A DNA stretch of 64,000 nt, from assembly GCA_964384825.1 (NCBI GenBank), contig CAYLMM010000001.1:38552-102551 (forward strand). The letters are read 5' to 3'. The number at the start of each line of letters is the position of its first letter. Position 1 is the stretch's first letter. The position numbers were made by a program, and so were the translations under genes. The notes under the pieces were generated by a model. It was not told the origin of the DNA. It did not search any database and saw only the letters and a list, made by a program, of their open reading frames with translations. This document shows, piece after piece, positions 48,881 through 64,000 of this stretch. Origin of the DNA: an uncultured Fibrobacteraceae bacterium (GTDB taxonomy: Bacteria; Krumholzibacteriota; Krumholzibacteriia; LZORAL124-64-63).

Positions 48881-49267
48881 CTAATGCAGTCCCGTTCTCA
48901 CCTCGAGCAGTTCCCGGACCTGCTCGACCAGGTGGGATATGACGAACGGCTTCGTGACGTACAGATCGGCCCCGGCCTTGCGCATGTCCTCCCGCACGGA
49001 ATGATCCGCCCGGGCGGAAAGCGCGATGATCAGGGTGTCGGCGTAGTCCCGGTTCCAGCGGATCAGCCGGGTGGCGTCGATGCCGTCCAGCTTCGGCATC
49101 ATCACGTCCATGATGATGACGTCCGGCAGGAAGGTCGCGACCTTGTTCATGCAGTCGATTCCGTCGCCTGCCGACGCGACGACGAATCCCTCGTCCCTGA
49201 ATGTCCGGACGAGCAGCGAAACCAGCGGCCTCTCGTCCTCGACGACCAGAACGCGAATCTTCTCCAT
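48881..49267 (-). CDS. Response regulator receiver (stand-alone REC)
   Basis: MEKIRVLVVEDE...DVIIMDVMMPKLDG...TKPF. Confidence 0.8.
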   Translation of the reverse strand: MEKIRVLVVEDERPLVSLLVRTFRDEGFVVASAGDGIDCMNKVATFLPDVIIMDVMMPKLDGIDATRLIRWNRDYADTLIIALSARADHSVREDMRKAGADLYVTKPFVISHLVEQVRELLEVRTGLH

Positions 49268-49278
49268 CCTGCTCCTGT

Positions 49279-50283
49279 CTAGACGGCGCAATTGCCCTTG
49301 TCCGGGTCCACGGCGCCCGTCGGCTGCTGGCCCTGGACCTGGCTGCGGCGGTCATGGACGACAACGCTGCCGGCGAGGGACTTGCCGTATTTCTTGAGTT
49401 CCGCCATGACCGCGTTGATGCTGCCGACGTGTCCGAAGCGGCCCGCGGTGTCGATGATCACCGCGATGGTCACCGAGACCGGGGGGAACTTCTTCAGCGA
49501 ATCCGCGCGGTCGGGGATCTCGATGTAGCCGCGCTCCCAGTCCTCGGGTTCGTAGAGGAAGCGGATGCTCTCGTCGAACCTGTTCTTCATGGTCTCGGCC
49601 AGTTCCATCGCCTCGTCCTCCGAGACGATGACCACGAAATCGTCGCCGCCGACGTGCCCCACGAAGGATTCGGCGGAGTCCCGTTCCTCGACCACCGCGG
49701 CGATGCATTCGGCCAGCAACGCGATGACCCTGTCGCCGCGGGAATATCCGTAGTAGTCGTTGTAGGCCTTGAAGTTGTCGAGATCCAGGTAGAGGTATCC
49801 GAAGGATTCCCCGTCCTCCAGACGCTTCTCAAGCTCCCTTGTGATGGCGCGGTTGCCGGGCAGGCCGGTCAAGGGGTTGGCGTCGCGCTGGCTGCGGCTC
49901 AGCTGCAGCATGTTGCGCACCCGGAGCATCAGCTCGTCGGGAACGAAGGGCTTGGTCAGGTAGTCGTTGGCCCCCTCCTGGAGACCGCGGACCCGCTGCG
50001 GGGTGTCGCCGCGTGCGGTGAGCATGATCACCGGCAGCGTCCTGGTCCGAATCTGGCCGCGGATGCGCTCGAGGACCGAGAATCCGTCCAGTCCGGGCAT
50101 CATGACATCCAGCATCACCAGGTCGGGGTCGTTGGTCTTGAGCCACTCCAGGGCTTCCTCGCCGTCCTGGGCGACCTGCACCCTAAATCCTTCTTTTTCA
50201 AGCATATAACTTAGGATTGTACGGATCGGCGGTTCGTCGTCGACGATCAGGATCAGCTCGCCATCGAACATTGCGGTCTCCAT
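49279..50283 (-). CDS. Response regulator with a C-terminal GGDEF-family domain (motif reads GGDDF)
   Basis: The REC domain reads LILIVDDEPPIR...DLVMLDVMMPGLDG...TKPF. It is followed by a GGDEF domain with LYLDLDNFKAYND and HVGGDDFVV. Confidence 0.8.
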   Translation of the reverse strand: METAMFDGELILIVDDEPPIRTILSYMLEKEGFRVQVAQDGEEALEWLKTNDPDLVMLDVMMPGLDGFSVLERIRGQIRTRTLPVIMLTARGDTPQRVRGLQEGANDYLTKPFVPDELMLRVRNMLQLSRSQRDANPLTGLPGNRAITRELEKRLEDGESFGYLYLDLDNFKAYNDYYGYSRGDRVIALLAECIAAVVEERDSAESFVGHVGGDDFVVIVSEDEAMELAETMKNRFDESIRFLYEPEDWERGYIEIPDRADSLKKFPPVSVTIAVIIDTAGRFGHVGSINAVMAELKKYGKSLAGSVVVHDRRSQVQGQQPTGAVDPDKGNCAV

Positions 50284-50399
50284 GCATTGTGAGACATACC
50301 GAGCCGGAATGACCCCGGCGCGGCGCCAACTTGCAATCCCCATGCCATGTACGGAACGATGAGATACGGTGAGGAACGACGGGAAGGCGATTCCGGGGA

Positions 50400-51410
50400 T
50401 CAGCGCCAGGAAGCGATGGGACGGCGCGCGAAGCTGTCCAGGGACAAGGCGTCGCGGCATCCGGCGGCCAGCCGCGCCCAGCCGGCGTAGGCGATCATGG
50501 CCGCGTTGTCGGTGCAGTATGCGATTTCCGGCGGGCGGAAGTGCACGCCCAGCCGGTCGGCGACCGCGGCGGTCCGGGACCGCAGGAAGCTGTTGGCCGC
50601 CACGCCGCCGGCCAGATAGACCGCGCGCACCCGGTGCTTGCGGGCCGCCTGCTCAAGCCGGGTGGTCAGGACATCGGCCACCGCCTCGTTCAGTTCGAGG
50701 GCGACGTCGGCAACGTCCTGCGGATCGAAGGGGCGGGACAGCTGCTCGACCTGCAGGCGCACGGCCGTCTTCAGGCCGCTGAAGCTGAAGACCACCCGCG
50801 GATCGCGGATCAGAGGACGGGGGAAATGGAAGCGTCCGGGTCGGCCGTCGGCCGCCAGCCGGTCCAGGACCGGCCCGCCGGGATACGGCAGGCCGAGGAT
50901 CTGGGCGGACTTGTCGAAGGCCTCGCCGGCCGCGTCGTCCAGGGTGCCGCCGAGCCGTTCGTAGCGGCCCACCTCGCTCATCAGGACGACCTCGCTGTGG
51001 CCGCCGGAAACCACCAGCACCGCCGCGGGGAAGATCATCTCGCCGCTCAGGGCGTTGGCCAGGATATGACCCTCGATGTGATGGACGCCGGCCATCGGGA
51101 TGTCCGCCGCGAAGCAGATCGCCTTGGCGGTCGACAATCCCACCAGCAGGGCGCCGATCAGGCCCGGGCCCGCGGTCACGCCCACCCCGTCGAGATCCCG
51201 GATGCCCATGCCGCGCCTTTCGAGCATGACGTCGACCAGAGGCAGCAGGTTCACCAGATGGGCGCGCGAAGCGAGCTCGGGCACCACGCCGCCGAAATGG
51301 GCGTGCAGATCGATCTGGCTGGAAACCAGGTTCTCGAGGATGCCCCGTTCGGAGTCGTAGAGGGCGACCGAAGTGTCGTCGCAGGATGTCTCGATGCCCA
51401 GGACCTTCAA
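50400..51410 (-). CDS. tsaD: tRNA N6-adenosine threonylcarbamoyltransferase TsaD
   Basis: LKVLGIETSCDDTSVAL...GVHHIEGH, the Kae1/TsaD metal-binding HxxxH...H pattern. No in-frame ATG or GTG lies upstream, so the start is inferred to be TTG overlapping the nnr stop (TTGA). Confidence 0.82.
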   Translation of the reverse strand: MKVLGIETSCDDTSVALYDSERGILENLVSSQIDLHAHFGGVVPELASRAHLVNLLPLVDVMLERRGMGIRDLDGVGVTAGPGLIGALLVGLSTAKAICFAADIPMAGVHHIEGHILANALSGEMIFPAAVLVVSGGHSEVVLMSEVGRYERLGGTLDDAAGEAFDKSAQILGLPYPGGPVLDRLAADGRPGRFHFPRPLIRDPRVVFSFSGLKTAVRLQVEQLSRPFDPQDVADVALELNEAVADVLTTRLEQAARKHRVRAVYLAGGVAANSFLRSRTAAVADRLGVHFRPPEIAYCTDNAAMIAYAGWARLAAGCRDALSLDSFARRPIASWR

Positions 51411-52981
51411 CAGACGCCTCCGGGAACGAGGTGGGCCTCGATCTCGGCGAAGGCCTCGCCGAGGCGGCGGGCCACGTCGCCGGCCCGGACCACGCGGCGA
51501 GAGCCCAGATCCGAGGCGGCCAGGCATCCGGCCCGGCCGTGCAGGCGGCAGCCGAGCAGGGCGGCGTCGCGCGCCGAGCACCCCTGACCCAGCAGGCCGC
51601 CGATCAGTCCGGTCAGCACGTCGCCGGTCCCCCCGTGGGCCAGCGCGTCGTGGCCGCAGGGGTTGATGGTCGCCGAACCGTCGGGAAGGCCGATCACCGT
51701 GGGCGATCCCTTCGAGACCAGGGTCGCTCCCCAGCGGGCCGCCAGTTCGGGCACGATTTCCAGGCGGCGTTCGGCCAGGACGGCGGTGTCCATGTCGGCC
51801 AGGCGCGCCAGCTCGCCCGCGTGGGGCGTGAGAACGACATGTTCGGAAGCGAATTCCGGTTCGCGGCCGAGCCTGGCGAAGGCCGAGATGGCGTCGGCGT
51901 CGACGACCACCGGCAGCGAGACCTCGGCCAGCAGATCGGCGACGAAGGCGTCGGTCCGGGGATCCGAGCCCATGCCCGGTCCCACCGCCAGGGCGGATTC
52001 CCGGGTCAGCAACGCGGCGCGCGCCTCGCGGTCGAGCGGGATCAATCCCCCCTCCTCGCCGGTCGGCAGGGCGATCTGCGGCGCTTCGGGCAAGGCGGCC
52101 AGAACCGCCGTGGAATGCACGTCCGGCACGGCCATGGTGACCAGGCCGACGCCCGAAGCCAGGGCTCCCATCCCGGCCAGGATCGCGGCGCCGCCGTAAC
52201 GGCGGGATCCGGCCAGCACCAGGGTCGTGCCGCAATTGTACTTGTGCGCGTCGGTGGGACGCGGCGGCAGCAGGTCGGCGTAATCGGCCGGCAGCAGGAA
52301 TTCGATGCGGTCGGTGTGACGCTCGCAGGCCTCGATCGGGAACCCGATGTCGACGACCGAGAGGTCGCCCGTGAAATCGCGGCCCGGCGGCAGCAGCAGG
52401 CCGAGCTTCGGCAGTCCGACGGTGATCGTGACGTCGGCCTTCACGGCGATCGGATCGACGTCGCCGGTGTTGCCCGAGACACCGGACGGGATGTCGATGC
52501 TGACCACCGGCGCGGGACCGGCGTTGAAGACCCGGAAGAGCTCGGCGTGATGATCGCGCACCGGCGGCTGGATGCCGGTGCCGAAAACGGCGTCGACGAC
52601 CAGATCGGATTCCTCGCAGAACGATTCCCAGACCGGCGCCCACTGGTCGCGGGGCGGGATCACCACGTCGACCCCGCCGGGCAGGCGCTCGTGGTTGATG
52701 CGGCCCTCGTCCGACAGGCCGCCGGGTTCGGCCAGGAGCATGACGCTGACCGTGTAGCCCAGGCCGTCGAGCAACCGGGCCACGACCAGGCCGTCGCCGC
52801 CGTTGTTGCCCTTGCCGCAGCAGATCGCGACGCGGGCCGGCGGCTCGAGGCCGGGATGCAGGCGGATCAGCTCCCAGGTGATCTCGCGGCCGGCGGTCTC
52901 CATCAGGTCCAGACCCGGTACGCCGCCGTCGATGGTCTCGCGGTCGATGGCGCCCATCTGCTTGGCTGTGGCTACTCGCAT
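51407..52981 (-). CDS. nnr: Bifunctional NAD(P)H-hydrate repair enzyme Nnr (epimerase + ADP-dependent dehydratase, YjeF family)
   Basis: The YjeF-N half reads CCGKGNNGGDGLVVARLL. The YjeF-C, carbohydrate-kinase-like half reads GPGMG...DADAI...TPHAGE...GGTGDVLTG. Confidence 0.85.
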   Translation of the reverse strand: MRVATAKQMGAIDRETIDGGVPGLDLMETAGREITWELIRLHPGLEPPARVAICCGKGNNGGDGLVVARLLDGLGYTVSVMLLAEPGGLSDEGRINHERLPGGVDVVIPPRDQWAPVWESFCEESDLVVDAVFGTGIQPPVRDHHAELFRVFNAGPAPVVSIDIPSGVSGNTGDVDPIAVKADVTITVGLPKLGLLLPPGRDFTGDLSVVDIGFPIEACERHTDRIEFLLPADYADLLPPRPTDAHKYNCGTTLVLAGSRRYGGAAILAGMGALASGVGLVTMAVPDVHSTAVLAALPEAPQIALPTGEEGGLIPLDREARAALLTRESALAVGPGMGSDPRTDAFVADLLAEVSLPVVVDADAISAFARLGREPEFASEHVVLTPHAGELARLADMDTAVLAERRLEIVPELAARWGATLVSKGSPTVIGLPDGSATINPCGHDALAHGGTGDVLTGLIGGLLGQGCSARDAALLGCRLHGRAGCLAASDLGSRRVVRAGDVARRLGEAFAEIEAHLVPGGVC

Positions 52982-53724
52982 GGCTTCGCGACCCCCTTGT
53001 CTCCGTTGAGGCGATCCAGGACATCCAGCAGCTGCAGCAGATCGTCGATCTCGAATTCCGCGCCGGAATCTCCGTCGGCGCGATCGCGGTCGGCCGATTC
53101 GTAGGTATCGCCGTAGCGCGCGTAGACGGTGTGCAGGCCCGCGCCCGCCCCGCCGACGATGTCGCGTTCGGGCCAATCGCCCACCATCACCGCCTGGTCG
53201 GGGCGGACATCGAGACGCTCGAGCACCATCCGGAACGGCACCGGGCTGGGCTTCGAAGCGCCGGTGTCGTCGCGGGTCAGGACCACGTCGAAGACATGGT
53301 GGAGGCGCAGATTGCAGAGCCGCAGCCAGGCCTCGAAGCGGGGGGCGTCGCTGACCACGGCCAGCTTGTACCCTTCCTTCAGGAGGCGGTTCAGCGTCAG
53401 GGTGACGTGGGGGTAGGGCAGCAGGGACGCCTCGCGGGCACGGCGGTAGGCGATCACCGCGGCGGCCAGGATCTTGTCGTCGACCCGGCCGAGCTGCTCG
53501 TCGAGGAAGATGTTGAACACCCTCTGGTGCTCGATCCCCTTGTCCTGGTAGATCTCGTAGATCCGCTCGGTGACGTCGGCGGGGCTCAGGCAGAGCCCGG
53601 CGTCGATCATGGCGTCGGCGGCGGCGACGATGGCGTTGCGTTTGACCTGCATGAAGTCGGTCAGCGTGTTGTCGAGATCGAAGACCACGGCCTCGATCGT
53701 CCGTTCCGCGATATGTTTCGGCAT
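52972..53724 (-). CDS. HAD-superfamily hydrolase
   Basis: Motif I VVFDLDNTLTD, motif II VVSDAP, motif III/IV K...VGDWPERD. Confidence 0.7.
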   Translation of the reverse strand: MPKHIAERTIEAVVFDLDNTLTDFMQVKRNAIVAAADAMIDAGLCLSPADVTERIYEIYQDKGIEHQRVFNIFLDEQLGRVDDKILAAAVIAYRRAREASLLPYPHVTLTLNRLLKEGYKLAVVSDAPRFEAWLRLCNLRLHHVFDVVLTRDDTGASKPSPVPFRMVLERLDVRPDQAVMVGDWPERDIVGGAGAGLHTVYARYGDTYESADRDRADGDSGAEFEIDDLLQLLDVLDRLNGDKGVAKPCE

Positions 53725-53868
53725 CCGGAATCCTCCCCCCGGTCGCCCGACCGGTTCGTTGGGCATAGTAAGCGTTGCCGGCGGTCATGCCAAGGTCGGC
53801 GCTGGACAGCGGACGGCCGCTTTGCTAGAGAAGGGGGACCATTCACCCCATCGAAGGAACCGCGCCCC

Positions 53869-54672
53869 GTGGAAAACGAATCTCCCGCCCCCCGCAAGCC
53901 GCGCCGGTCTCCGACGATCCCCGAGTCCTGGAGCACGACGCGGATCATCCTGCTGTCGCTGGCTCTGCTCGGGATCTACGTGATCGGGCAGACGCTCGCC
54001 TTCGGATTCCTCGGACACATGTTCGCGGCGGTGGCCTGCGGCGGGCTGCTGGCCCTGGCCGCGGCCACGGCCGTTTCGCTCGGACGCGGCCTCTCGCCGG
54101 CGCGGGACTTCGGATTCGCATCGCCGGGGCTGATGCAGGCCGCGGCCGCAACGGTGGTCGCCCTGGCCGCGACGGCGCCCAGTTCGCTGCTGGCCGGCTG
54201 GTCCACCCGCATCCACCCCCCCGGGCCGGAATGGATCGAACTGTTCAACCGGCATCTGCCCCACGGCGCGCGGGATGTCGCGATCGCCTGCTTCGCCGCG
54301 ATCGTGGTGGTGCCGCTGATCGAGGAGCTGATCTTCCGGGGGCTGCTCTACCGGGCCTGCCGGCGGCATTGGGGGGTCTTCGCCGCCGCCGCGGTCTCGG
54401 CCCTGGTCTTCGCCCTGGTCCACGGCGAACCGTGGTACCTCTTCGGCCTGGTGGGGATCGGGACCGTCTTGGCTTTGGTCTACGAATTCTCCGGTTCGCT
54501 CGTGCTGGCGGTATGGACCCACGCCGTCTACAACGCCTTTTCCCTGGCGATGATCCTGCGCGAGGGCGGCATCGGCACGGAGCCGCAGACCGAGGATCCG
54601 TCGCTGCTGCTGGTCCTGCCCTCGCTGGCGCTGCTTGCCGTCGCCCTGCTCGCGCTGCGCCGCCGGAGCTGA
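53869..54672 (+). CDS. CPBP family intramembrane metalloprotease (CAAX protease-like)
   Basis: EELIFRGLLY and FALVHG motifs. Multiple TM helices. A GTG start at 53869 is inferred so that TM1 is included. Confidence 0.7.
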   Translation: MENESPAPRKPRRSPTIPESWSTTRIILLSLALLGIYVIGQTLAFGFLGHMFAAVACGGLLALAAATAVSLGRGLSPARDFGFASPGLMQAAAATVVALAATAPSSLLAGWSTRIHPPGPEWIELFNRHLPHGARDVAIACFAAIVVVPLIEELIFRGLLYRACRRHWGVFAAAAVSALVFALVHGEPWYLFGLVGIGTVLALVYEFSGSLVLAVWTHAVYNAFSLAMILREGGIGTEPQTEDPSLLLVLPSLALLAVALLALRRRS

Positions 54673-54678
54673 CCGGCC

Positions 54679-55974
54679 CTAGGTCTTCTGCGGCTTCGGA
54701 CGCGCGGCCGGGAAGAGGATGTTGTTCAGGATCAGCCGGTAACCCGGCGACGTCCGGTACAGATCCAGGTCGGTCGGCGGATCCCCCACCGCGTGCTGGT
54801 AATCCTCGGGATCGTGCCCCCCCAGGAAGGTGAAGGTGCCCCGGCCCCGCTTGCCGTGCAGGTAGCGGATCTCGTCGGTGCCCTCGACCTGCGCCAGGAC
54901 CGTCACCGACCGCTTCAGGAAACGCTCGTGGAACCCGGTCGTCTGGCCCATGAACCCGTCGATGACGTTGACGTGGCACTGGGTGAGCATCGTCGGCACC
55001 GGATCGTGCTTGGCGGCGAAGGCGAACAGCGTGAAGTAGTCGGCCTCCGGTCCGCGGAGCCGGACGTAGTCGCTGGTGTCGATGTCGGAGAACTCGTAGA
55101 CCAGCGGATCGGTGACCAGCGTGAAGTCCCGGAAGGCGAAGGTCCGGCCGTCGTCGCGCCTGCTTTCGCGGTCGGGATCGAGACCGTCGCCGTCCATCTC
55201 GGTCGGCACGATGTCCGAGCCGAGATAGGCCAGCGCGATGTCGATGGTGTCGGTGGCCGAGCACATCGCGAACAGGAATCCCCCGTCCTCGACGTAGTCG
55301 CGGATCCGCAGGGCCACCGCATGCTTCATCCGCCACACGTCGGCGAATCCGAGCCGGCCCGCCAACTCCTGCTGCATCTTCTTCTGATCGAGATACCAGT
55401 CGGCGTTGCGGTAGGCGGCGTAGAACTTGCCGTACTGGCCCGTGAAATCCTCGTGATGCAGATGCAGCCAGTCGTAACCCGCGAGGCGGCCCGCGAGCAC
55501 CTCGGCGTCGAAGACCAGGTCGTAGGGGATCTCGGCGTAGGTCAGCGCCAGGGTGACCGCGTCGTCCCAGGGCTGGAATCCGGGCGGCGCGTAGACCGCG
55601 ATGCGGGGCGGCTTCTCGAGCAGGACCTCTTCCATGTTCCCCGCGCCGATCGATTCCCGGATGCCCGCGGTCTCGGCGTCGCCCACGATCTCGAAATCCA
55701 CTCCCCGCAGCCTCGCCGCCAGCCTGGTCCGCGGGGCGTCCGCGAAAAGGAAGGCGCCGCCGCGATAGTTCAGCAGCCAGCTCACCGCCGCGCCTTGCTG
55801 CAATTCGCCGAAGGCCAGCCCGTATGCCTTCAGATGGTTGGACTGGCTCAGATCCATCGGCACCAGCAGGCTGTCCGCGCGCGCGGTCGCGGCGGCGGCC
55901 AGCAGGATCAGGATCGCCGGGATCGTTGCGGCGGCCGGAAACCGGCGGCGATGCGCGCTGATCTTTCGATTCAC
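54679..55974 (-). CDS. Secreted hypothetical protein with a class-I glutamine-amidotransferase-like N-terminal half
   Basis: GTG start VNRKISAHRRRFPAAATIPAILILLAAAATA, a signal peptide. About 431 aa. The start overlaps the upstream gene stop (GTGA). Confidence 0.5.
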   Translation of the reverse strand: MNRKISAHRRRFPAAATIPAILILLAAAATARADSLLVPMDLSQSNHLKAYGLAFGELQQGAAVSWLLNYRGGAFLFADAPRTRLAARLRGVDFEIVGDAETAGIRESIGAGNMEEVLLEKPPRIAVYAPPGFQPWDDAVTLALTYAEIPYDLVFDAEVLAGRLAGYDWLHLHHEDFTGQYGKFYAAYRNADWYLDQKKMQQELAGRLGFADVWRMKHAVALRIRDYVEDGGFLFAMCSATDTIDIALAYLGSDIVPTEMDGDGLDPDRESRRDDGRTFAFRDFTLVTDPLVYEFSDIDTSDYVRLRGPEADYFTLFAFAAKHDPVPTMLTQCHVNVIDGFMGQTTGFHERFLKRSVTVLAQVEGTDEIRYLHGKRGRGTFTFLGGHDPEDYQHAVGDPPTDLDLYRTSPGYRLILNNILFPAARPKPQKT

Positions 55975-57953
55975 GGCAGGCTCCTGAGATGATCGCGGAT
56001 CTCGTCCGCGAAGATGTAATCGGGGTACTGGAGCAGCAGCCGCTCCCACGATGTCCGGGCCTCGGCCGGGCGCCCGGCCCGCTGCAGCAACTCGCCTTCC
56101 AGCGCCAGCGCCGGCGCGGCGTAGGATCCGGCCGGATGATCGCGGACGATGCGGTCGCACTGAACCAGCGCCCCGGCGATGTCGCCGGCGTCGCCGAGCA
56201 GGCCGGCCAATTCGTAGAGGCCGCGCTCGATCAGGGGATTCGATCCTCCGTCTGCGGCCTCGCCGGCCGCGGAATGCTCCGTCCCCACCATCTCGGCCAG
56301 GACCGCCCGCCGGGATTCCGGATCCGCGGTCAAGGCGAACCCGACGCTGCGGGAATAGAGATCCATCAAGGGTCGCGCGACTCCGCCGTCCAGCGCTTCG
56401 GCCGCAAGCAGGCCCAGATCCAAGGCGTCGTTGGCGACGTCGGAATCCGGAGCGTCCAACGCCACGCTGGCGAAGCGGTCGCGGGCTCCATCCCAGTGCC
56501 CCTGCGCCAGATCCAGCCGACCGAGGATGAAATGGGCGACCCCGGCCGCATCGCGATGGTCCGGATCGGCGGCCAGTTCGGCGAGGGACCGGCGCGCCCC
56601 GGCGGTATCGCCCGCCGCCAGGCGGCATTCCCCCCAGGCCAGCCGGGCCAGCGCCACGCCCTCGATCGGCAGATCCAGGTCCGTGAGCAGCCTCTGCAGG
56701 CGCTTCGCCGCCCTTTCGGGCCGCCGCAGGACCTCGCGGTCGTAGCGGGCCAGGGCGATCTGCGCGGTATAGAGATGGCCGCTGCCGGGATTCCCCAGGC
56801 GTACGCGTTCGAGCGCCCGTTCCAGCCGGTCCACGGCCGCTTCGGGGTCGTCGCCGGGAAAATCGAGATCCAGGGCCATGACCGCCGCCCGCGCCAGCAG
56901 ATCGAGGGTCCGCGGGACGCGCCCCGGCGTCAGCCCCCCGCCGTCGGCCAGGCCCTCGAGCATCGCCAGCAGCCAGCGGACGGTCGCGGCCCGGGCTTCG
57001 GGCGATTCGATCAGCGGCGCCTCGCGCAGGGCCACCGACACGTTCTCGAGCAGGAAGATCGCGGCCCGGGGGTCGGCTACCAGCGGCGCGACGGCCGCCT
57101 CGGCCCGATCGGCGTCGCCGAGCCGCAGGGCGAGATCGGCCCGCAGAAGGCGCACGGCCGCGGCCTGGTCCGGAACCGCGTCCAGGGCGTCGGCGGCCCG
57201 CCCGATCCGATCGGGGTCGCGCAGCACCCGGCTCAGTTCGCCGCGCACCAGAGGCAGATTCAAGGGACGGATCGCCAACTCGCCGGCCAGGACCACCGCC
57301 CCCTCCTCGATCCGGTCGAGTTCGATGAGGCAGGCCGCCCGCTGGCGGTCGAGATGATCGGCGGGCGGATGCTCGAGACGCTCCCGGTCGCAAAGCGCCA
57401 AGGCCCGTTCCGGAAAACCCGCCTCGCGCCATTGCCGGACCGCCGAGGTGACGGCCGGTCTGCGGTCCGAACTCATCGCGATCAGCTCATCCAGGACATC
57501 CGCGGCCTCTTCCACGCGCTCCAGCGCGATCAACGAACGCGCCAGCTCCCGGCGCAGCTTGATCGAGGCGGGCGAAGCCAGCAACCCGCGGCGGCTGAGG
57601 TCGACGGCCTGCTGCTCGTCGCCCCGGAGCCGGGCCAGCCGGATACGGCGGCCTACGAGTTGCCCCTGCGGCGCGCCGAGCGCATCGAGACGGGCGAGCA
57701 GAGCCTCGGCGCCGCTGATGTCGCCGCGGCTCAGGGCCCGGTCCAGATCCGGCATCAGCACGCGCCAGTACAGCGGCTTGGTCTGCAAGCCGGGTTTCCG
57801 GCGCACCGCGGATTCCGGTTCGGGTCCGGGCTCGGCCGCGGATTCCGCGCCGGTCGTCGGCACGCCCGGCGACGGCGCCGCGGGGAGCGGGCCGGCCAGC
57901 AGCAACAGGCCGCCGGTCGCGACCAGGAGGGCTACGCGCAGAAATCTTCTCAT
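55971..57953 (-). CDS. Secreted TPR-repeat protein
   Basis: MRRFLRVALLVATGGLLLLAGPLPAAP is a signal peptide. About 660 aa, rich in helical repeats. The ATG overlaps the upstream stop (ATGA). Confidence 0.6.
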   Translation of the reverse strand: MRRFLRVALLVATGGLLLLAGPLPAAPSPGVPTTGAESAAEPGPEPESAVRRKPGLQTKPLYWRVLMPDLDRALSRGDISGAEALLARLDALGAPQGQLVGRRIRLARLRGDEQQAVDLSRRGLLASPASIKLRRELARSLIALERVEEAADVLDELIAMSSDRRPAVTSAVRQWREAGFPERALALCDRERLEHPPADHLDRQRAACLIELDRIEEGAVVLAGELAIRPLNLPLVRGELSRVLRDPDRIGRAADALDAVPDQAAAVRLLRADLALRLGDADRAEAAVAPLVADPRAAIFLLENVSVALREAPLIESPEARAATVRWLLAMLEGLADGGGLTPGRVPRTLDLLARAAVMALDLDFPGDDPEAAVDRLERALERVRLGNPGSGHLYTAQIALARYDREVLRRPERAAKRLQRLLTDLDLPIEGVALARLAWGECRLAAGDTAGARRSLAELAADPDHRDAAGVAHFILGRLDLAQGHWDGARDRFASVALDAPDSDVANDALDLGLLAAEALDGGVARPLMDLYSRSVGFALTADPESRRAVLAEMVGTEHSAAGEAADGGSNPLIERGLYELAGLLGDAGDIAGALVQCDRIVRDHPAGSYAAPALALEGELLQRAGRPAEARTSWERLLLQYPDYIFADEIRDHLRSLP

Positions 57954-60900
57954 CGCGGCGCCTCCCCGGGATTGGCAGGAGGAACCGCCAGCTCTTCGAG
58001 GCTGCGGTAATACCGGCGCACCAGATCGCGGTATTCCAGCGGCACCCGGTCCAGGGAGCGCCGGCGCACACGGGCGGCGGCGGCATCCCGGTCGGATGCG
58101 GAGGGGATCGGGTCGGCGATCTGATCGGAAGCGGCCCCGTCCGCGGAGCGGCTGCGGCGCAGCATCGAGAAATCCCGGCGGCGGACCGAATTGTGGGCGT
58201 CTAGCAGACGCCCGAGAATCCGCTCCTGACGGCGCAGGGTCCTCTCGTCCAGCACGCCCTGGCCGAGATCCCGGGCGACGCTCTCCATCTGTTCGGACAG
58301 ATCGCCCAGATCGCCCAGCATCCTGCGGGCTTCCTCGGGATCGAGCCGGCTCTCGATTTCGGCCTCGCGGGTCTCTTCGGCCAAGGACCGCTGATCGGCC
58401 TGGAGCCTCCTCATGGCGGCGCGCTGCTCCATGTCCGAGGCGTCCCTGCCGTTCATGCCGCGCCGGAGGGCTTCGGCCAACCCGTTGAGGCCGGCCTGCT
58501 TGCCTGCCAGGCGGCGCAGACGTTCGCTCAGCAGCGGCGAAGACCCGGCCCCGCCGCCTCCGCCCGACTCCGCGCTGGTCAGCAGGTTGATCACCAGGGC
58601 GTTCATCGCGCCGAGACCGGCGCGGGCCTCGCGCGCGGCGTCCAGGCCCCATCCCGACTCGAGAAACGAGCGTGATGACTCGACGCGCCCGGCGGCCGCG
58701 TCGAGCCGGCGCAGCAATCCCATCGAGAGCATCGGCGAGGATCCCAGCAGAGTCCGCAGCCCTTCGCGCAACGAGCGCAGGGCCCGCAGGATCCGCGCCT
58801 GGTCGCGGGTCAGCCCCGGTGCGCGCACGTCGCGCAGATTGGCGGGGATGCGGCCGGCCAGGTCCTCCTCGCGCGCGGACAAGGCCAGCACGTCGAAGGC
58901 GATCCGCCGCAGGGTGCCGGCGACCTGCTGCTGCATCCGGGCCTGCATGGCCCGGTCGCCCTGGAGGATGACGCTGTAGAGAGAGGCCAGGCGGCGCATC
59001 GCCTCATGGCGGCTCTCGTCGGATCCCGACCCGCCGGAGCGCATCCGGCCGGCCGTCTCGCGCATGGCCCGGGCGGGATCGCGCTCTTCGAGACGGCGCA
59101 GGGCCTCGGCGAGAGTTTCGCGCAGCGATTCCTCGGCGGGCGAAGAAGATCCGGGGTCTTCGCCGCCGGCGCCCATCTCTTCGAGCTTGGACCGGATGCG
59201 CTCGGCGAGGCGGTCGATCTCCTCGGCCAGGGCCTCCTGACGGCGAGCGGCTTCCTCGTCGGCCGCATTATCGGATTCCCCGTCCCCGCCCGTGTCCGCA
59301 TCCGACGCCGCGGCCTGGTCGATCAGATCCTGCTGCCGGCGCAGCATCTCTTCGAGGGCGCCGGCCATGCCCTCGAGCTCCTGCCGGCCCCGCATCTGCT
59401 CGAGCAGGCTTATGGTGCGGTCGAGACGCTCGATCAGGGCCTGCTGATCGCGGGCCGCCTCGGCGACGGCCTCGCGGATCTCGTCGGGCGTGAGCTTGCC
59501 CATCTCCTCGCGCAGGCTGTCCTGGAGCCGGCGCAATTCCTCGCTGCGCACGTCGGCCAGCAGGTCGGAAACCTCCTGCATCTTCTCCAGAAGCTCCACC
59601 GATGTCTGGTTGCGCAGGGCCATCTCGGACAGACCGTCCTCGAGATCGGCGGCGATCCGGTCCAGTTCCCGCTGCAGTTCGCGTTGGCGCTCGAGCGCCG
59701 TCTCCATCTCCTGACGGCGGGCGAAATCCGGTTCGGGATCCTTCTTGAGCTCGCGGGTGATCCTTTCGAGATCGGCGTCCATGCGGATCGAGCGTTCGCG
59801 CAGTTCCGCCAGGTCGCCGATCCGGCTCTCGTCGGTCTCGGCCCGGGATGCGAGGATCTCGGCCGCCGAGGGCATGACCAGGCGCAGGATCGAACTGCGC
59901 CCGATGCCGGGCGGTCCCGGACGCCGGCGATCGCGGGCCTCGAGCCGCATCAGCAGCACGTCGCCCGGGACGATCTCCAGATCGCCCGTGTCGAAAAGGA
60001 TCCGGCACGATACGCCGAGGCCGTCTTCGGACTCCTCCGCGTCGACCCCGACGCGGACCGGCCCCAGGGCGGTGCGCGACTCGCGGGGCTCGGCGACGCC
60101 CGCCCGCTCGCCGGGTTCGTCGCTCCGGCGCCAGACCGGAATGTCGATCCAGGCGGCCCGATCGTCCCCGCCGGCCGCCTCGACCTCGCCCCGCCGCCGG
60201 AACTGCAGGACCAGGTCGGCCAGGCCGTAATCGTCCTCGGCGACGGCGCCCAGGTCCAGCCGCCCGTCGACCGGCAGCAGACCGGTCCGCTCGGCGCAGG
60301 AGATCCGTGCCGTGGGAGCGGAGTCGGGCAGCAGATCGACCCTGTGGGCCAGGTCCGCGCCGCCGGTCGCGCCGCGCCGGTCGCGCAGCAGCAGATGGAA
60401 TTCCAGAGGGGCGTCGCAGCGCCGCGACCAGCGCAGCGTATCGCCGGCCACCGCCGCCGGCAGGGTGTCGCCGGCCGTGGTCACGGCCGCGGCCGCGGCC
60501 AAGGCCCGGTCCGCAATTCCGCGCAGACGCACGACGCTGCCGGCGGGCGCCTCGATCCTGGCCGGGAAACGGGGCAGGTCGCGCGCGGGCAGACCGGTGT
60601 AGGCCGGCGGCTCGTAGGAGCCGGCGAGTTCCATCAGCAGGGGCGGATGCCGCACGTCGATCCTCGCCTCGGCGGTGACCATGCCGTCGCGGCGGAAGCG
60701 GAAGCGGAAGCTCTCGTCGACATCCTCGACCCTCGCCGTCCAACGCAGGGCGATGCCGGCGGAAGACGTATCGCGGGACGCCGGCAAGGGCCGCCACAGG
60801 CCGCTGCCGCGCCGCACCTCGCAGACGGCGGACTCGCGCGGATCGCCGAAATCCAGCGCCGCGAGCACCACGTCCTCGCCGGCCGCAGCCTCGCGATCCC

Positions 60901-61534
60901 CATCCTGCAGATAGATCCCGGCCGTGGGGGAAAACGCTTCATCACGCAGGGGATGGCACAGACGGTCGATTCCCCGGGCCGAGCCGGCCGGTCCCGCGGA
61001 GATCACCCAGAACGCCAGCGCCGCGCCGCAGATCAGGGCGGCCAGATTCCCTCGGACATCGGGAACGGCCAGCAGCCGGGCCCTGTCGATGGATTCGGAC
61101 CTGTCCGCCGCGACCGCGAAAAGCCGCCGGCGAAGCTCCCCGGCGACGCCTCCGCCCTCGCCCCGGCCTTCGCCCGCCCCCCATCGCCCGGGCCGTCGCG
61201 ACGCCTCTTCGGCCGCCACCAGCAGATTCTGGAAATCCCCGCCGCTCTCGAGCCGCCGGCAGAGGAGCTCGGCCGACCGCAGCCCCCACAGCGGCAGCAG
61301 GACGTCCCGCAACAGCAGCCATCCGGAGAAGACCGACAGCAGGGCCCATGCCGAAAGCTTGCCCGCGACCGAGGAACCGGCCGGCCCGGAGACCAGGACC
61401 GCCGCCGCGACCGCCGCGGCCAGGGTCCCGCCCGCCCACAGCGGAGCTCCGGCGCCCAGCACACGCCACCGCGCCGCGGCGAGATGTCCCCGCAGCGATG
61501 CCTGGAAGCGTTTTCTGTCGCCGGCGGAATCCAC
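57950..61534 (-). CDS. Large membrane-anchored coiled-coil protein. Possibly DUF4175-like, at low certainty.
   Basis: About 1195 aa from a GTG at 61534. There are N-terminal TM helices (LAAAVAAAVLVSG, LSAWALLSVFSGWLLL) and a central region of about 500 aa rich in E/R/L coiled-coil sequence. The gene lies 9 nt after the DUF4159-like gene. Confidence 0.55.
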   Translation of the reverse strand: MDSAGDRKRFQASLRGHLAAARWRVLGAGAPLWAGGTLAAAVAAAVLVSGPAGSSVAGKLSAWALLSVFSGWLLLRDVLLPLWGLRSAELLCRRLESGGDFQNLLVAAEEASRRPGRWGAGEGRGEGGGVAGELRRRLFAVAADRSESIDRARLLAVPDVRGNLAALICGAALAFWVISAGPAGSARGIDRLCHPLRDEAFSPTAGIYLQDGDREAAAGEDVVLAALDFGDPRESAVCEVRRGSGLWRPLPASRDTSSAGIALRWTARVEDVDESFRFRFRRDGMVTAEARIDVRHPPLLMELAGSYEPPAYTGLPARDLPRFPARIEAPAGSVVRLRGIADRALAAAAAVTTAGDTLPAAVAGDTLRWSRRCDAPLEFHLLLRDRRGATGGADLAHRVDLLPDSAPTARISCAERTGLLPVDGRLDLGAVAEDDYGLADLVLQFRRRGEVEAAGGDDRAAWIDIPVWRRSDEPGERAGVAEPRESRTALGPVRVGVDAEESEDGLGVSCRILFDTGDLEIVPGDVLLMRLEARDRRRPGPPGIGRSSILRLVMPSAAEILASRAETDESRIGDLAELRERSIRMDADLERITRELKKDPEPDFARRQEMETALERQRELQRELDRIAADLEDGLSEMALRNQTSVELLEKMQEVSDLLADVRSEELRRLQDSLREEMGKLTPDEIREAVAEAARDQQALIERLDRTISLLEQMRGRQELEGMAGALEEMLRRQQDLIDQAAASDADTGGDGESDNAADEEAARRQEALAEEIDRLAERIRSKLEEMGAGGEDPGSSSPAEESLRETLAEALRRLEERDPARAMRETAGRMRSGGSGSDESRHEAMRRLASLYSVILQGDRAMQARMQQQVAGTLRRIAFDVLALSAREEDLAGRIPANLRDVRAPGLTRDQARILRALRSLREGLRTLLGSSPMLSMGLLRRLDAAAGRVESSRSFLESGWGLDAAREARAGLGAMNALVINLLTSAESGGGGGAGSSPLLSERLRRLAGKQAGLNGLAEALRRGMNGRDASDMEQRAAMRRLQADQRSLAEETREAEIESRLDPEEARRMLGDLGDLSEQMESVARDLGQGVLDERTLRRQERILGRLLDAHNSVRRRDFSMLRRSRSADGAASDQIADPIPSASDRDAAAARVRRRSLDRVPLEYRDLVRRYYRSLEELAVPPANPGEAPR

Positions 61535-61542
61535 TGCGCCTC

Positions 61543-62271
61543 CTAGGGCCCGGTCAGGGCGTACATCAGGATGTTCACGGCCATCCGCGCTGCGGCCTCG
61601 CGCACCGCGGGGGGATCGCCGTGCACGTCGGGATCCTCGAGCCCGTCGCCGATATCGCTGGAATACGAGTAGAAGACCACCATCCGCCCGCCGCGATAGA
61701 CGCCGAAACCCTGCGCCGGCTCGCCGTCGTGCTCGTGGATCTTGGGCAGGCCGTCCAGATCGTAGAAGCTGTGGTAGATGGGATGATCGGCGCCGAGCCG
61801 GATCAGCGGATCGTCGGGAAAGACCCGCTTCATCAGGTCGCGGAAAGCGAGGTCGAGGCCGTAGTTGTCGTCGGCGTAGAGGAATCCCCCGGAATCCAGG
61901 TAGCGGCGCAGGGTCGCGATCTCGTAGGGGTCCAGATCGATGTCGCCGTGGCCGCTCAGGTACAGGAACGGATGGCGGAACAGGTCCTCGCTGTCCAGGC
62001 CGACCACCGCCGCATCCGCGGCGGTCGGGATGCCGGTGCGCGCCGCGAAGAGCTCCAGCCAGTTGGGCAGCGAACTGGGATCGCAGTACCAGTCGCCGCC
62101 GCCGTAATGCAGCCGGGCGATGCCGACCCGGTCGGCGGGCGCGTCGGCCGGCGCGGCGGAGGCCGGAGCCGGCGATCCGAAAACGGCGAACGTCCACAAC
62201 GACGCGGCCAGAAGCGCCGGCGCGATCGCCGGACGCGGGGCGGCGCGGGGCGGACGGACACCGAAGGTCAT
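61543..62271 (-). CDS. Secreted DUF4159-like protein (GDW motif, GATase1-like fold family)
   Basis: MTFGVRPPRAAPRPAIAPALLAASLWTFAVFGSPAPASAA is a signal peptide. Also LHYGGGDWYCDP, and FYSYSSDIGDG. Confidence 0.55.
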   Translation of the reverse strand: MTFGVRPPRAAPRPAIAPALLAASLWTFAVFGSPAPASAAPADAPADRVGIARLHYGGGDWYCDPSSLPNWLELFAARTGIPTAADAAVVGLDSEDLFRHPFLYLSGHGDIDLDPYEIATLRRYLDSGGFLYADDNYGLDLAFRDLMKRVFPDDPLIRLGADHPIYHSFYDLDGLPKIHEHDGEPAQGFGVYRGGRMVVFYSYSSDIGDGLEDPDVHGDPPAVREAAARMAVNILMYALTGP

Positions 62272-62288
62272 GCTCGGGAGCTCCCGGT

Positions 62289-63866
62289 TCAATCGGCGGG
62301 CGGGGCGGCGTCGGCCCGCGGCAGAACGACTTCCGCCACGGCGCCGGAACGGTCCCCGCGATTCCTCAGGCTGATCCGGCCGTTCATCTTCTCCAGGAGA
62401 TTGCGGCATATGGAGAGGCCCAGACCGGTGCCCTGGCTCTTGGTGGAAAAATAGAGATTGAAGAGACGGTCGGCCACTTCGGAGTCCAGCCCCGGACCGT
62501 TGTCCCGCCACAGCAGGGTCACTTCGCGGTCGTCGATGCGCCAGCCCACCACGACCTCCAGCGCCGCGGGATCGCCGACGGCCTGGATCGAATTCTCCAT
62601 CAGGTTGCCCAGGACCTTCTCCAGGGATTCGGCATGAGCCAGCACCGCCGGCACCTCGGCCTCCTCCCACCGCACCCGGGGACCGGCCGCGGCCTCATCG
62701 TCGCCCTGCCGGTAGCGCCCGCAGACCCTGGCGGCCAGTCCGGGCCAGTCCAGGGATTGGCATTCCAGGCGTTCCGGCCGGCCCAGCAGGCTGAATTCGG
62801 TGGCGATCGACCGCAGCAGCGACACCTGTTCGAGAACCTGTCCGACGGTGGACTCGAGGATGCCGTCCATGTCCTCGGCCCGGTCCCGCCAGGCCTGCTG
62901 CAGGAACTGCACCGAAAGCTGGATCGGAGTCAGCGGATTCTTCACCTCGTGGGCGACCTGGCGGGCAAGCTGGGCGTTCAGAGCCAGGCGCTTGTTGGCC
63001 AGGAATTCGGTCACGTCCTCGAAGACCAGCATGGTGTCGCGGCGGCCGCCGGGCAGGTCCAAAGGCGCGATGCGGCCGCGCAGGGTCAGACGCCCGTCCC
63101 AGGCGCGCACCTCGGCCGCGGCCTCGCCTCCCGTCGCCGCGTCGCGGAATTCGGCCAGCAGGCGCGGCGGACGGGCCTCGGTCCCGAGATCGGCTCCGTC
63201 GTAGAAGGCGTCGATGATCCTGCGGGCGGCCGGGTTCAGAGAGACGACATCCTGGTCGTCGGCGTAGACCGCAACGCCCACCGGCACCTTCTCCAGCAGC
63301 GAACTGAGGAATCTCTCGCGCTCGGCCAGGGTGCGCTGGGCGTCACGCAGATCATCGCGCATCCCGCGGAACGAAGCGCTGAGCGTACCCAGTTCGTCCA
63401 GCCCCTCGTCGGGCAGCGGAGCGTCGAAATCCCCCGACGCCAGACGCCGGGTCGCCGCGACCAGCACGCGCACCGGGTCGAAGATCCGCCAGGTCAAAGC
63501 CAGGGCCAGGAACGAGGCGGTCAGGAAGATCAGGGTCGCCAACCCCGCCAGGAACAGGATGATCTGTTCGCGCTGGGCCGAGTATTCGCGCTCGCGAGCC
63601 GGGAAGGTCACCGCCAGCGCCGCCGGGACCTCGCGCAGGGACAGCCGGCCGCCGACGTTCTCGAGGGTCGGCATGGCCAGGATCCCCGTCCAGGCCAGAT
63701 CGCTGCCGGGCAGGCGGTGCAACGAGGTGTTGCCGGGCTGCCGCTGCAGACGGGTCATCACCCCGGGCGGCAGCATCAGGAATCCCGCTCCCGAGAACAC
63801 CCTTTCCGGGTGGCTGGCGTAGAGGGCCTCGCCCGCGACATGGAGCGTCATCTCGCCCTGGATCAC
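62289..63866 (-). CDS. Sensor histidine kinase (periplasmic domain - TM - HAMP - HisKA - HATPase_c). The N-terminus may extend further upstream.
   Basis: HAMP-like segment after the TM helix ILFLAGLATLIFLTASFLALALTW. H-box AHEVKNPLTPI, N-box NLMENSIQAV, G-boxes DNGPGL and GTGLGLSI. The gene ends 17 nt upstream of the DUF4159-like gene. Confidence 0.75.
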   Translation of the reverse strand: MIQGEMTLHVAGEALYASHPERVFSGAGFLMLPPGVMTRLQRQPGNTSLHRLPGSDLAWTGILAMPTLENVGGRLSLREVPAALAVTFPAREREYSAQREQIILFLAGLATLIFLTASFLALALTWRIFDPVRVLVAATRRLASGDFDAPLPDEGLDELGTLSASFRGMRDDLRDAQRTLAERERFLSSLLEKVPVGVAVYADDQDVVSLNPAARRIIDAFYDGADLGTEARPPRLLAEFRDAATGGEAAAEVRAWDGRLTLRGRIAPLDLPGGRRDTMLVFEDVTEFLANKRLALNAQLARQVAHEVKNPLTPIQLSVQFLQQAWRDRAEDMDGILESTVGQVLEQVSLLRSIATEFSLLGRPERLECQSLDWPGLAARVCGRYRQGDDEAAAGPRVRWEEAEVPAVLAHAESLEKVLGNLMENSIQAVGDPAALEVVVGWRIDDREVTLLWRDNGPGLDSEVADRLFNLYFSTKSQGTGLGLSICRNLLEKMNGRISLRNRGDRSGAVAEVVLPRADAAPPAD

Positions 63867-64000
63867 CTCGCCGAGCCCGGGCAGCAGGCCGCCCTCGACC
63901 CGCTGGCGATAGAAGAACAGGCCGTTGCTCGATGGCGCCTCGTGCAGTTCGGCGCCGACGCTGTCGGCGGCCGAGGTCGCCGGGTCGGCGGCGAGGATCC

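What the first reader, a model, noticed from the sequence alone, without database searches (positions are those of the whole stretch)
54679..63866. Translationally coupled operon of uncharacterised secreted and membrane proteins, preceded by a sensor kinase
Four consecutive minus-strand genes are joined by 4-nt start/stop overlaps (ATGA at 57950-57953, GTGA at 55971-55974) or a 9-nt gap. They are a small secreted GDW-motif protein, a roughly 1195-aa inner-membrane protein with a 500-aa E/R-rich coiled coil, a secreted TPR protein, and a secreted GATase1-like protein. A sensor histidine kinase ends 17 nt upstream. I could assign no enzymatic function from the sequence. The architecture (signal peptides, TM anchors, giant coiled coil, TPR) suggests an envelope-spanning structural or sensing assembly. 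DUF4159/DUF4175-type genes are conserved but functionally undescribed. The tight coupling argues for a stoichiometric complex.
Basis: partly seen in the sequence, partly recalled or inferred. Interest (0 to 1): 0.6.

Follow-up and report, generated by a model that had tools for sequence, protein, structure and literature searches.

The report
Conserved envelope operon of unknown function
Four tightly packed genes for exported and membrane proteins, sitting behind a giant sensor kinase in an uncultured Krumholzibacteria genome, form a module kept together across several related phyla; one member, wrongly named "asparagine synthetase B" in databases, looks like a new exported thiol enzyme, but nobody knows what the module does.

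Summary
On the minus strand there are four genes. A (61543-62271) is DUF4159. B (57950-61534) is a divergent DUF4175 membrane protein. C (55971-57953) is a TPR protein. D (54679-55974) has no family hit. The ATGA and GTGA start/stop overlaps are real. The A/B gap is 8 nt, not 9, and the kinase stops 17 nt before A. Corrections: the kinase runs off the window and is a 1626-aa, many-pass membrane protein. Window B itself does not hit the DUF4175 model; its relatives do.

The A-B-C-D order is conserved in Krumholzibacteriota, Latescibacterota, Longimicrobiales and Poribacteria: 49 of 54 informative loci have D downstream of A. Flanks differ between phyla. No MoxR, DUF58 or vWA partner is nearby.

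Best reading: a membrane-anchored extracytoplasmic assembly, with B as stalk, C as adaptor, A as non-catalytic partner and D as catalytic subunit. Its substrate is unknown. This is a well-documented "known unknown" of moderate interest.

The parts
62289..64000 (-). C-terminal 570 codons of a giant sensor histidine kinase (last membrane helix, HAMP, PAS, HisKA, HATPase_c). The gene runs off the window; its full length is 1626 aa.
   Evidence: Pfam hits to HAMP, PAS_8, HisKA and HATPase_c. The full product is seen on identical ENA scaffold L001. Full-length relatives of 1618-1685 aa have about 12-14 hydrophobic segments, and their first ~1200 aa have no Pfam hit.
61543..62271 (-). Gene A: exported DUF4159 protein, 242 aa, GATase1-clan fold without a nucleophile Cys (GGFLYADDNYG).
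   Evidence: PF13709 at E 3.3e-61. N-terminal hydrophobic segment 14-33 with ASA|AP. PDB relative 4i66, an uncharacterised protein, at E 1.5e-26. 51-77% identity across phyla. Invariant GGGDWY, GHG, KIHEHDG and DIGDGLED motifs.
57950..61534 (-). Gene B: 1194-aa inner-membrane protein of the DUF4175 family (GTG start).
   Evidence: 16 of 18 aligned relatives hit PF13779, best E 2.3e-14; the window protein does not. The Latescibacterota counterpart scores 73.9 bits.
60983..61453 (-). B residues ~28-184: three hydrophobic helices with an R-rich loop between helices 2 and 3. Predicted topology: N-terminus inside, bulk of the protein outside.
   Evidence: Kyte-Doolittle segments 30-56, 64-82 and 160-184. 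The topology is inferred from the distribution of positive charges.
59876..60919 (-). B residues ~206-553: about four tandem Ig/FN3-like beta-sandwich domains.
58085..59866 (-). B residues ~557-1150: long E/R/A/L-rich helical region.
   Evidence: Composition and low Pro+Gly content. The model shows helices of 35-42 residues (model residues 372-413 and 419-454) starting right after the last beta domain.
57953..58049 (-). B C-terminal conserved motif (residues ~1163-1180, VPLEYRDLVRRYYRSL). It is the most widely shared part of the family.
   Evidence: Invariant P1165, Y1168, L1171, V1172 and Y1175. The same C-terminal module is found in the WOR-3 B-like protein (hhalign 93%).
55971..57953 (-). 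Gene C: exported TPR protein, 660 aa. Its ATG overlaps B's stop (ATGA).
   Evidence: TPR_19 at 51.7 bits and TPR_6 at 42.1 bits. N-terminal hydrophobic segment 3-27 with no lipobox Cys. 25-50% identity in related loci.
54679..55974 (-). Gene D: exported 431-aa protein with a GATase1-like fold and no Pfam or NCBIfam family. NCBI names it 'asparagine synthetase B'. Its GTG overlaps C's stop (GTGA).
55261..55263 (-). Codon of D Cys238, the candidate nucleophile (strand 233-237, then Cys, then helix 240-249).
   Evidence: Invariant in 42 close homologues. Present in 17 of 18 sequences down to 38% identity. Secondary structure from the model.
54814..54816 (-). Codon of D His387 in GGHDPE, resembling the HPE motif of class I amidotransferases.
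   Evidence: Invariant in close homologues. Lost only in P0163, the one sequence that has also lost Cys238. Local model confidence is low over residues 388-396.

Best explanation
This is one transcription unit: a giant polytopic sensor kinase followed by a four-gene extracytoplasmic module inherited as a block in the FCB-group phyla.

Proposed roles:
- B (DUF4175) is anchored in the inner membrane by three helices. It projects about four Ig-like domains and a ~600-residue helical stalk into the periplasm.
- C (TPR) acts as an adaptor.
- A (DUF4159) is a non-catalytic protein of the GATase1 clan.
- D is the catalytic subunit: a GATase1-fold thiol enzyme (Cys238/His387), most likely an amidohydrolase or acyl/amido-transferase. 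It would act on an envelope or extracellular polymer (peptide or glycan-peptide amide bonds).
- The module holds D at a defined place in the envelope. The kinase is co-expressed with it and probably senses a related envelope or substrate signal.

Shown: gene structure, families, folds, conserved residues, synteny.

Inferred: export and topology, physical association, catalysis, substrate, the regulatory link.
For: Gene packing:
- 4-nt overlaps and 8- and 17-nt gaps with Shine-Dalgarno sequences.
- No promoter-like or terminator-like sites above chance inside 54000-64000.

Synteny:
- In 54 genome loci with enough sequence, B is adjacent to A in 51 and D lies downstream in 49.
- The block occurs in Krumholzibacteriota, Latescibacterota, Longimicrobiales and Poribacteria.
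- The flanks are unrelated in Longimicrobiales.
- A B-like/x/D trio with overlapping genes occurs in WOR-3.

Location:
- All four products have signal-like or membrane segments.

Structure and conservation:
- B model: Ig-like domains followed by long helices.
- D fold: GATase1-like.
- Cys238 sits between a strand and a helix, as the nucleophile does in this fold.
- Cys238 and His387 are invariant in 42 homologues. They are lost together in the only exception among 18 distant ones.
- D and A are the most conserved members (52-79% and 51-77% identity). B and C evolve fast (22-50%). That pattern fits enzyme/partner against scaffold.
- D relatives with type IX secretion sorting domains show the family works outside the cytoplasm.

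Kinase:
- It lies directly upstream in 52 of 68 loci and within 5 kb in further Latescibacterota-type loci.
Against: - No experiment or interaction prediction links the four proteins.
- D works alone in Bacteroidota, so it does not need A, B or C.
- Some Latescibacterota loci have A, with or without B, but no D nearby (L054, L066, L068).
- The third triad residue is not conserved: Glu390 varies in four of 18 sequences.
- The model is unreliable around His387 and over residues 302-345.
- Many GATase1-like domains (ThuA-like, IFT52, OST48, GH42 middle domains) are non-catalytic.
- No response regulator is adjacent to the kinase.
- The 80 loci analysed are the best matches to A, so they are biased towards close relatives.
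Confidence: 0.45

Rival explanations
1. The module is the DUF4159/DUF4175 arm of a Bat/cmd-type envelope-integrity system. It would depend on a MoxR AAA+ ATPase, a DUF58 protein and vWA proteins encoded elsewhere in the genome. Its role would be stress tolerance of the envelope, as reported for the Rhizobium cmdA-D and Bacteroides Bat operons.
For: - A and the B family carry the DUF4159 and DUF4175 signatures.
- From my own knowledge, not tested here, these signatures sit beside MoxR and DUF58 in alphaproteobacterial operons.
- Bat/cmd operons also contain TPR and membrane proteins with large periplasmic parts. Mutants have envelope and morphology defects (PMC5700661).
Against: - No MoxR, DUF58 or vWA gene in the 64-kb window.
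- None within 10 kb in Krumholzibacteriota, Longimicrobiales or WOR-3 loci.
- The four-gene block moves between genomic contexts on its own.
- NCBIfam models give no link to the alphaproteobacterial families.
Confidence: 0.2
2. D is an exported nutrient-scavenging hydrolase that releases usable carbon or nitrogen from extracellular amide-linked polymers. A, B and C capture or present the substrate, and the kinase senses the substrate or its product.
For: - D relatives in Bacteroidota are stand-alone type IX secretion cargo, typical of secreted or surface hydrolases.
- In Latescibacterota-type loci a CstA transporter gene, and in one locus (L055) a transglutaminase-like gene as well, lie between the kinase and A.
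- The GATase1 fold includes gamma-glutamyl hydrolases and peptidases.
Against: - D is unusually conserved (67-81% identity among the top 120 hits). That is more typical of housekeeping envelope functions than of substrate-adapted secreted hydrolases.
- The window D has no type IX sorting domain.
- The intervening genes differ in content and orientation between loci.
Confidence: 0.2
3. The genes are co-transcribed neighbours without a shared machine. Tight spacing reflects a compact high-GC genome and shared ancestry. Each protein acts separately.
For: - D occurs without A, B or C, and A occurs without D.
- A stand-alone DUF4159 gene sits on a Corynebacterium plasmid.
- Downstream housekeeping genes (HAD, YjeF, TsaD) are also syntenic among Krumholzibacteriota.
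Against: - The four-gene order survives across at least four phyla while the flanks change.
- B/C overlap is kept in distant loci.
- All products share the same compartment.
Confidence: 0.15

Closest known systems
Rhizobium leguminosarum cmdA-D (RL3499-RL3502) and Bacteroides/Leptospira/Borrelia Bat operons
   Same: - Operons of inner-membrane and periplasmic proteins with TPR components.
- Function unknown; envelope-integrity or stress phenotypes (PMC5700661).
- From my own knowledge, the last two cmd genes carry DUF4159-like and DUF4175 domains.
   Different: - No MoxR ATPase, DUF58 or vWA protein here or nearby.
- A Cys-bearing GATase1-like protein (D) and a giant kinase are present instead.
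- I could not fetch the cmd proteins, so the domain equivalence is untested.
Pfam DUF4159 (PF13709), with solved structure 4i66 (Hoch_4089)
   Same: A is a full-length, high-scoring member.
   Different: The family has no described function. Here it is a stand-alone exported protein fixed next to DUF4175.
Pfam DUF4175 (PF13779)
   Same: B's relatives match the model. They share the N-terminal helices, beta domains, low-complexity helical region and C-terminal YRxLVxxY motif.
   Different: - The window protein falls below detection by the model.
- The only literature mention with biology is Acinetobacter AdvA, a division protein whose DUF4175 match lies in the N-terminal part of the protein, upstream of residues 203-238 (PMC7481262). 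That is not comparable.
Class I glutamine amidotransferase-like superfamily (ThuA-like, 3rht, 2gk3; catalytic members HisH, PdxT, gamma-glutamyl hydrolase)
   Different: - 9-16% identity only, and no sequence-level match to any PDB chain.
- An extra N-terminal alpha/beta domain and an insertion of about 100 residues.
- It is exported.
- The acidic triad residue is not strictly conserved.
Asparagine synthetase B (the database name of D)
   Same: Nothing beyond the name given by NCBI.
   Different: - No hit to any asparagine synthetase or Ntn-type amidotransferase model in Pfam or NCBIfam.
- From established knowledge, AsnB is a cytoplasmic enzyme with an Ntn-type (class II) glutaminase domain and a synthetase domain.
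- D has a signal-like N-terminus and a different fold (class I-like).

Membership tests
DUF4159 (PF13709) | Score above the Pfam gathering threshold over the whole domain | tested here: met
   A scores 206.8 bits against a cut-off of 25.9, covering profile positions 2-202 of 202.
DUF4175 (PF13779) | Score above the Pfam gathering threshold | tested here: inconclusive
   Window B has no hit at E<=1. 16 of 18 aligned relatives (39-54% identical to B) hit the model, best E 2.3e-14. The syntenic Latescibacterota protein scores 73.9 bits against a cut-off of 27.3. Membership rests on transitivity only.
TPR proteins | TPR repeat models above threshold | tested here: met
   C: TPR_19 at 51.7 bits (cut-off 25) and TPR_6 at 42.1 bits (cut-off 26.3).
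Class I glutamine amidotransferase-like fold | Structural match to the GATase1 alpha/beta fold | tested here: met
Catalytic class I amidotransferases / C26-type hydrolases | Cys-His-Glu triad: Cys at the nucleophile elbow, His and Glu in an HPE motif | tested here: inconclusive
   Cys238 follows strand 233-237 and precedes helix 240-249. Cys238 and His387 are near-invariant, but Glu390 varies. The three-dimensional geometry was not inspected, and confidence is low over residues 388-396.
Asparagine synthetase B | Ntn-type glutaminase domain plus asparagine synthase domain | tested here: not met
   D has no Pfam or NCBIfam hit at E<=0.01. Its fold is GATase1-like.
Bat / cmd (MoxR-associated) operons | MoxR AAA+ ATPase, DUF58 protein and vWA (BatA/BatB) proteins in the same cluster | tested here: not met
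   None in the window or in the 10-kb flanks of related loci in three phyla. The rest of the genome could not be searched.
Two-component sensor histidine kinases | HisKA phospho-acceptor and HATPase_c domains | tested here: met
   HAMP 52.8 bits, HisKA 27.3 bits and HATPase_c 67.5 bits, all above their cut-offs. No partner response regulator was identified.
Type IX secretion cargo | C-terminal sorting domain (PF18962) | tested here: not met
   Window D ends in ...FPAARPKPQKT with no sorting domain. Six distant homologues do carry it, at 33-55.6 bits against a cut-off of 27.

The most novel reading that the evidence does not exclude
D defines a new family of exported Cys/His enzymes built on the GATase1 fold. 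The family is mislabelled 'asparagine synthetase B' across thousands of genomes. In the FCB-group phyla it is the catalytic end of the DUF4159-DUF4175 scaffold. Finding its substrate would give these two widespread domains of unknown function, and by extension the Bat/cmd-type envelope operons, their first biochemical activity.
Probability: 0.3. Interest if true: 0.6.

Novelty: new variant of a known kind. Interest (0 to 1): 0.42.

Why it matters
- DUF4159 and DUF4175 are widespread envelope-protein families with no assigned activity. Related Bat/cmd operons have had envelope or stress phenotypes for over twenty years without a mechanism.
- This module offers a handle: a highly conserved partner (D) with a plausible active site.
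- D has relatives in cultured Spirosoma species and in type IX secretion cargo, so it can be purified and mutated.
- The work also flags a systematic misannotation ('asparagine synthetase B'), which inflates apparent nitrogen-metabolism potential in metagenome-assembled genomes.
- It documents an unusual kinase of about 1650 aa, with many membrane passes, whose sensing region has no known domain.

Tried and rejected
- **MoxR/DUF58/vWA partners.** I annotated 20 further window genes, the genes upstream of the kinase in relatives, and the flanks in Longimicrobiales and Gemmatimonadota. None were found.
- **A and D as paralogues.** Profile-profile comparison aligned only a 15-residue GGFLFA motif, at 26% probability. 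I treat them as sharing a fold class, not as demonstrable paralogues.
- **Sequence search of D against PDB.** Nothing at E<=1.
- **NCBIfam link from B relatives or A to alphaproteobacterial families.** None.
- **Fold search of B's beta region.** Only generic Ig/FN3 matches, with no functional lead.
- **AFDB fold library.** Unavailable.
- **The cmd operon paper (PMC3133104).** Not held.
- **Plasmid search for annotated DUF4159 neighbourhoods.** It returned a lone gene in a resistance region, and an unannotated Gemmatirosa plasmid whose neighbours (ORF sizes only, not annotated) did not suggest a MoxR arrangement.
- **Homology search with the kinase N-terminal region.** Four hits, no domain annotation.
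- **Conserved convergent Rce1-like protease as a processing partner for D's conserved C-terminal tail.** Dropped, because it is absent next to the module outside Krumholzibacteriota.
Full report
**1. What is in the sequence**

The window is about 69% GC. Real genes stand out by a high GC content at the third codon position. On the minus strand, between 54679 and the window end, there are five consecutive genes.

- The first is a sensor histidine kinase. Its TGA lies at 62289-62291. In the window its reading frame stays open to the last base.
- On an identical ENA metagenome scaffold the kinase product is 1626 aa.
- Gene A (61543-62271, 242 aa) starts 17 nt after the kinase stop.
- Gene B (57950-61534, 1194 aa, GTG start) follows after 8 nt. 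An AGGAGG straddles A's stop.
- Gene C (55971-57953, 660 aa) starts inside B's stop, as ATGA.
- Gene D (54679-55974, 431 aa) starts inside C's stop, as GTGA.
- Independent gene calls on the ENA scaffolds give the same four products.
- No sigma-70-like promoter was found between 54000 and 64000, and terminator-like sites (3 found, 2.7 expected from shuffles) do not exceed chance.
- D's stop lies 6 nt from the stop of a convergent Rce1-like (CPBP) gene.

**2. What the proteins are**

A is a full-length DUF4159 protein (206.8 bits). It has a signal-like N-terminus ending ASA|AP and the GGGDWY motif. Its only solved relative is the uncharacterised Hoch_4089, PDB 4i66.

B gives no Pfam hit itself, even at E<=1. 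However, 16 of its 18 aligned relatives match DUF4175. The syntenic Latescibacterota protein scores 73.9 bits. B is therefore a divergent DUF4175 protein. Its parts are:
- three hydrophobic helices in the first 185 residues;
- a region that AlphaFold models with confidence (pLDDT 84.8) as about four Ig/FN3-like sandwiches;
- an E/R/A/L-rich helical region of about 600 residues;
- an invariant C-terminal motif, PxEYRxLVRRY.

The distribution of positive charges puts the large part of B outside the cytoplasm. That is an inference.

C has a signal-like N-terminus and TPR repeats.

D has a signal-like N-terminus ending ARA|D but no Pfam or NCBIfam family. NCBI nevertheless calls its relatives 'asparagine synthetase B'.
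- Cys238 sits between strand 233-237 and helix 240-249, the place of the nucleophile in this fold.
- Cys238 and His387 (in GGHDPE) are invariant in 42 close homologues.
- Among 18 sequences down to 38% identity, they are missing in only one, which has lost both. Glu390 is less conserved.
- A has Asp-Asp-Asn where D has Cys, so A is probably non-catalytic. This is read directly from the sequence.
- A and D cannot be shown to be paralogues by sequence.

The kinase has HAMP, PAS, HisKA and HATPase_c domains. Full-length relatives (1618-1685 aa) have about 12-14 hydrophobic segments. These are arranged in clusters separated by loops of 220-275 residues. Their first 1200 residues have no Pfam hit.

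**3. Conservation and context**

The source organism is an uncultured member of the Krumholzibacteriota. A scan of one genome per species found 433 species with a close relative of A. I analysed the best 80 loci.

- Of 54 loci with enough downstream sequence, 51 have B next to A. In 49, D lies 4.5-8 kb downstream.
- The block occurs in Krumholzibacteriota, Latescibacterota, Longimicrobiales (Gemmatimonadota) and Poribacteria.
- In Longimicrobiales the flanks are unrelated: ClpB and a methylase on one side, an aminotransferase on the other. The four genes are therefore the conserved unit.
- In a WOR-3 genome, a 921-aa protein that shares B's C-terminal module (hhalign 93%) is followed by a 427-aa protein and then D, with overlapping genes. 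No DUF4159 gene is adjacent.
- D (52-79% identity) and A (51-77%) are far better conserved than C (25-50%) and B (22-48%).
- The giant kinase ends within 400 nt of A in 52 of 68 loci. In Latescibacterota-type loci it lies 2-5 kb away, with CstA or transglutaminase-like genes in between.
- Upstream of the kinase in Krumholzibacteriota are secD, secF and a polysaccharide deacetylase.
- No MoxR, DUF58 or vWA gene was found in the window or in any flank examined.

The D family is compact. Among 1.84 billion representative proteins there are 1463 hits at E<=0.001 and 189 at E<=1e-30.

In Bacteroidota, D stands alone. It is found in cultured Spirosoma species. In several uncultured Bacteroidota it carries a type IX secretion sorting domain above the Pfam threshold. 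The family therefore works outside the cytoplasm and can work without A, B and C.

**4. How it most likely works**

My best reading (confidence about 0.45) is a membrane-anchored extracytoplasmic assembly.
- B is a stalk or scaffold, fixed in the inner membrane.
- C is a TPR adaptor.
- A is a non-catalytic GATase1-clan partner.
- D is a thiol enzyme, most likely an amidohydrolase or acyl/amido-transferase, acting on an envelope or extracellular polymer.
- The polytopic kinase is co-expressed with them.

What is shown: the gene structure, the families and folds, the conserved residues and the synteny. What is inferred: the export and topology, the physical association, the catalytic activity, the substrate and the regulatory link.

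Points against this reading:
- D can act alone.
- Some loci have A, with or without B, but no D.
- The acidic triad residue varies.
- The model is weak around His387.
- Many GATase1-like domains are non-catalytic.

Rivals:
- A MoxR-dependent Bat/cmd-type envelope system whose ATPase is encoded elsewhere (0.2).
- A nutrient-scavenging exported hydrolase with accessory proteins (0.2).
- Co-transcribed but independent genes (0.15).

**5. Comparison with what is known**

Full-text searches found one paper that mentions DUF4159 (the Pfam paper). Four mention DUF4175, and only one of these has biology: Acinetobacter AdvA, a division protein whose DUF4175 match lies in the N-terminal part of the protein, upstream of residues 203-238.

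The nearest described systems are the Bat operons and the Rhizobium cmdA-D operon. Their mutants show envelope and morphology defects, and their mechanism is unknown (PMC5700661). That cmdC and cmdD carry DUF4159-like and DUF4175 domains is my recollection. I could not fetch those proteins or the original paper.

The defining MoxR, DUF58 and vWA components are absent here. I therefore do not file this as a Bat/cmd operon. I file it as a new variant of that kind of envelope module.

The name 'asparagine synthetase B' for D fails every test I could apply.

**6. Verdict**

The finding is real and carefully described. Its interpretation is largely right, with four corrections:
- the kinase is giant and truncated by the window;
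- B is DUF4175 only by transitivity;
- D probably is an enzyme, and it is not tied to the operon in all lineages;
- the expected MoxR partners are not there.

It remains a 'known unknown'. Interest is moderate (0.42). It would rise if D's activity were established, because that would give the DUF4159/DUF4175 modules their first biochemistry.

Noticed in passing
window 62289-64000 (-), continuing beyond the window; L001 1-3686, L007 4948-9900, L051 5013-9869, L083 405-5441: The 'sensor kinase' is a 1620-1685-aa protein. It has about 12-14 hydrophobic segments in three clusters, separated by loops of 220-275 residues. The first ~1200 residues match no Pfam family. It is conserved next to or near the module in Krumholzibacteriota and Latescibacterota.
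   Followed up: partly
P0138, P0141, P0145, P0149, P0150, P0158 (relatives of window 54679-55974); L087, L089: Distant D homologues in Bacteroidota carry a type IX secretion C-terminal sorting domain (PF18962) and stand alone in the genome. The window protein and its close relatives end instead in a conserved basic tail, FPAA(R/K)xKxxKT, of unknown meaning.
   Followed up: partly
L088 10001-11272 (Spirosoma telluris) and WP_142774371.1 (Spirosoma sp. KCTC 42546): Cultured Spirosoma species encode a 423-aa D homologue (about 48% identity), named 'asparagine synthetase B' by NCBI. This is a tractable organism in which to test the family.
   Followed up: no
window 53869-54672 (+): A convergent Rce1-like (CPBP) intramembrane protease gene ends 6 nt from D's stop. 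The same arrangement is seen in another Krumholzibacteriota genome (L004), but not next to the module in Longimicrobiales.
   Followed up: partly
L086 8941-9558 (Corynebacterium crudilactis plasmid pCRULAC1, NZ_CP015623.1): A stand-alone DUF4159 gene (42% identical to A) lies beside a dihydrofolate reductase gene, inside a mosaic of aminoglycoside and sulfonamide resistance genes and IS26 copies.
   Followed up: no
window 46142-53784 (-): Beyond the convergent gene lies a run of minus-strand genes: HAD hydrolase, a YjeF_N/Carb_kinase-domain protein, TsaD, a response regulator-GGDEF protein, a single-domain response regulator, a GAF/HisKA/HD-domain kinase, another response regulator, then PriA. 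None is an obvious partner of the giant kinase.
   Followed up: no
window 27936-39023: Chemotaxis genes (two MCP-type receptors, one with a CZB zinc-binding domain, and CheA) lie in the same window. Glycogen-type GH57 genes at 13401-17359 and two pyruvate:ferredoxin oxidoreductase-type genes suggest an anaerobic, motile lifestyle.
   Followed up: no
L055 5925-9566; L083 7226-8920: In Latescibacterota-type loci, a CstA transporter gene lies between the giant kinase and the DUF4159 gene, in differing orientation. In L055 a transglutaminase-like gene lies there as well.
   Followed up: partly
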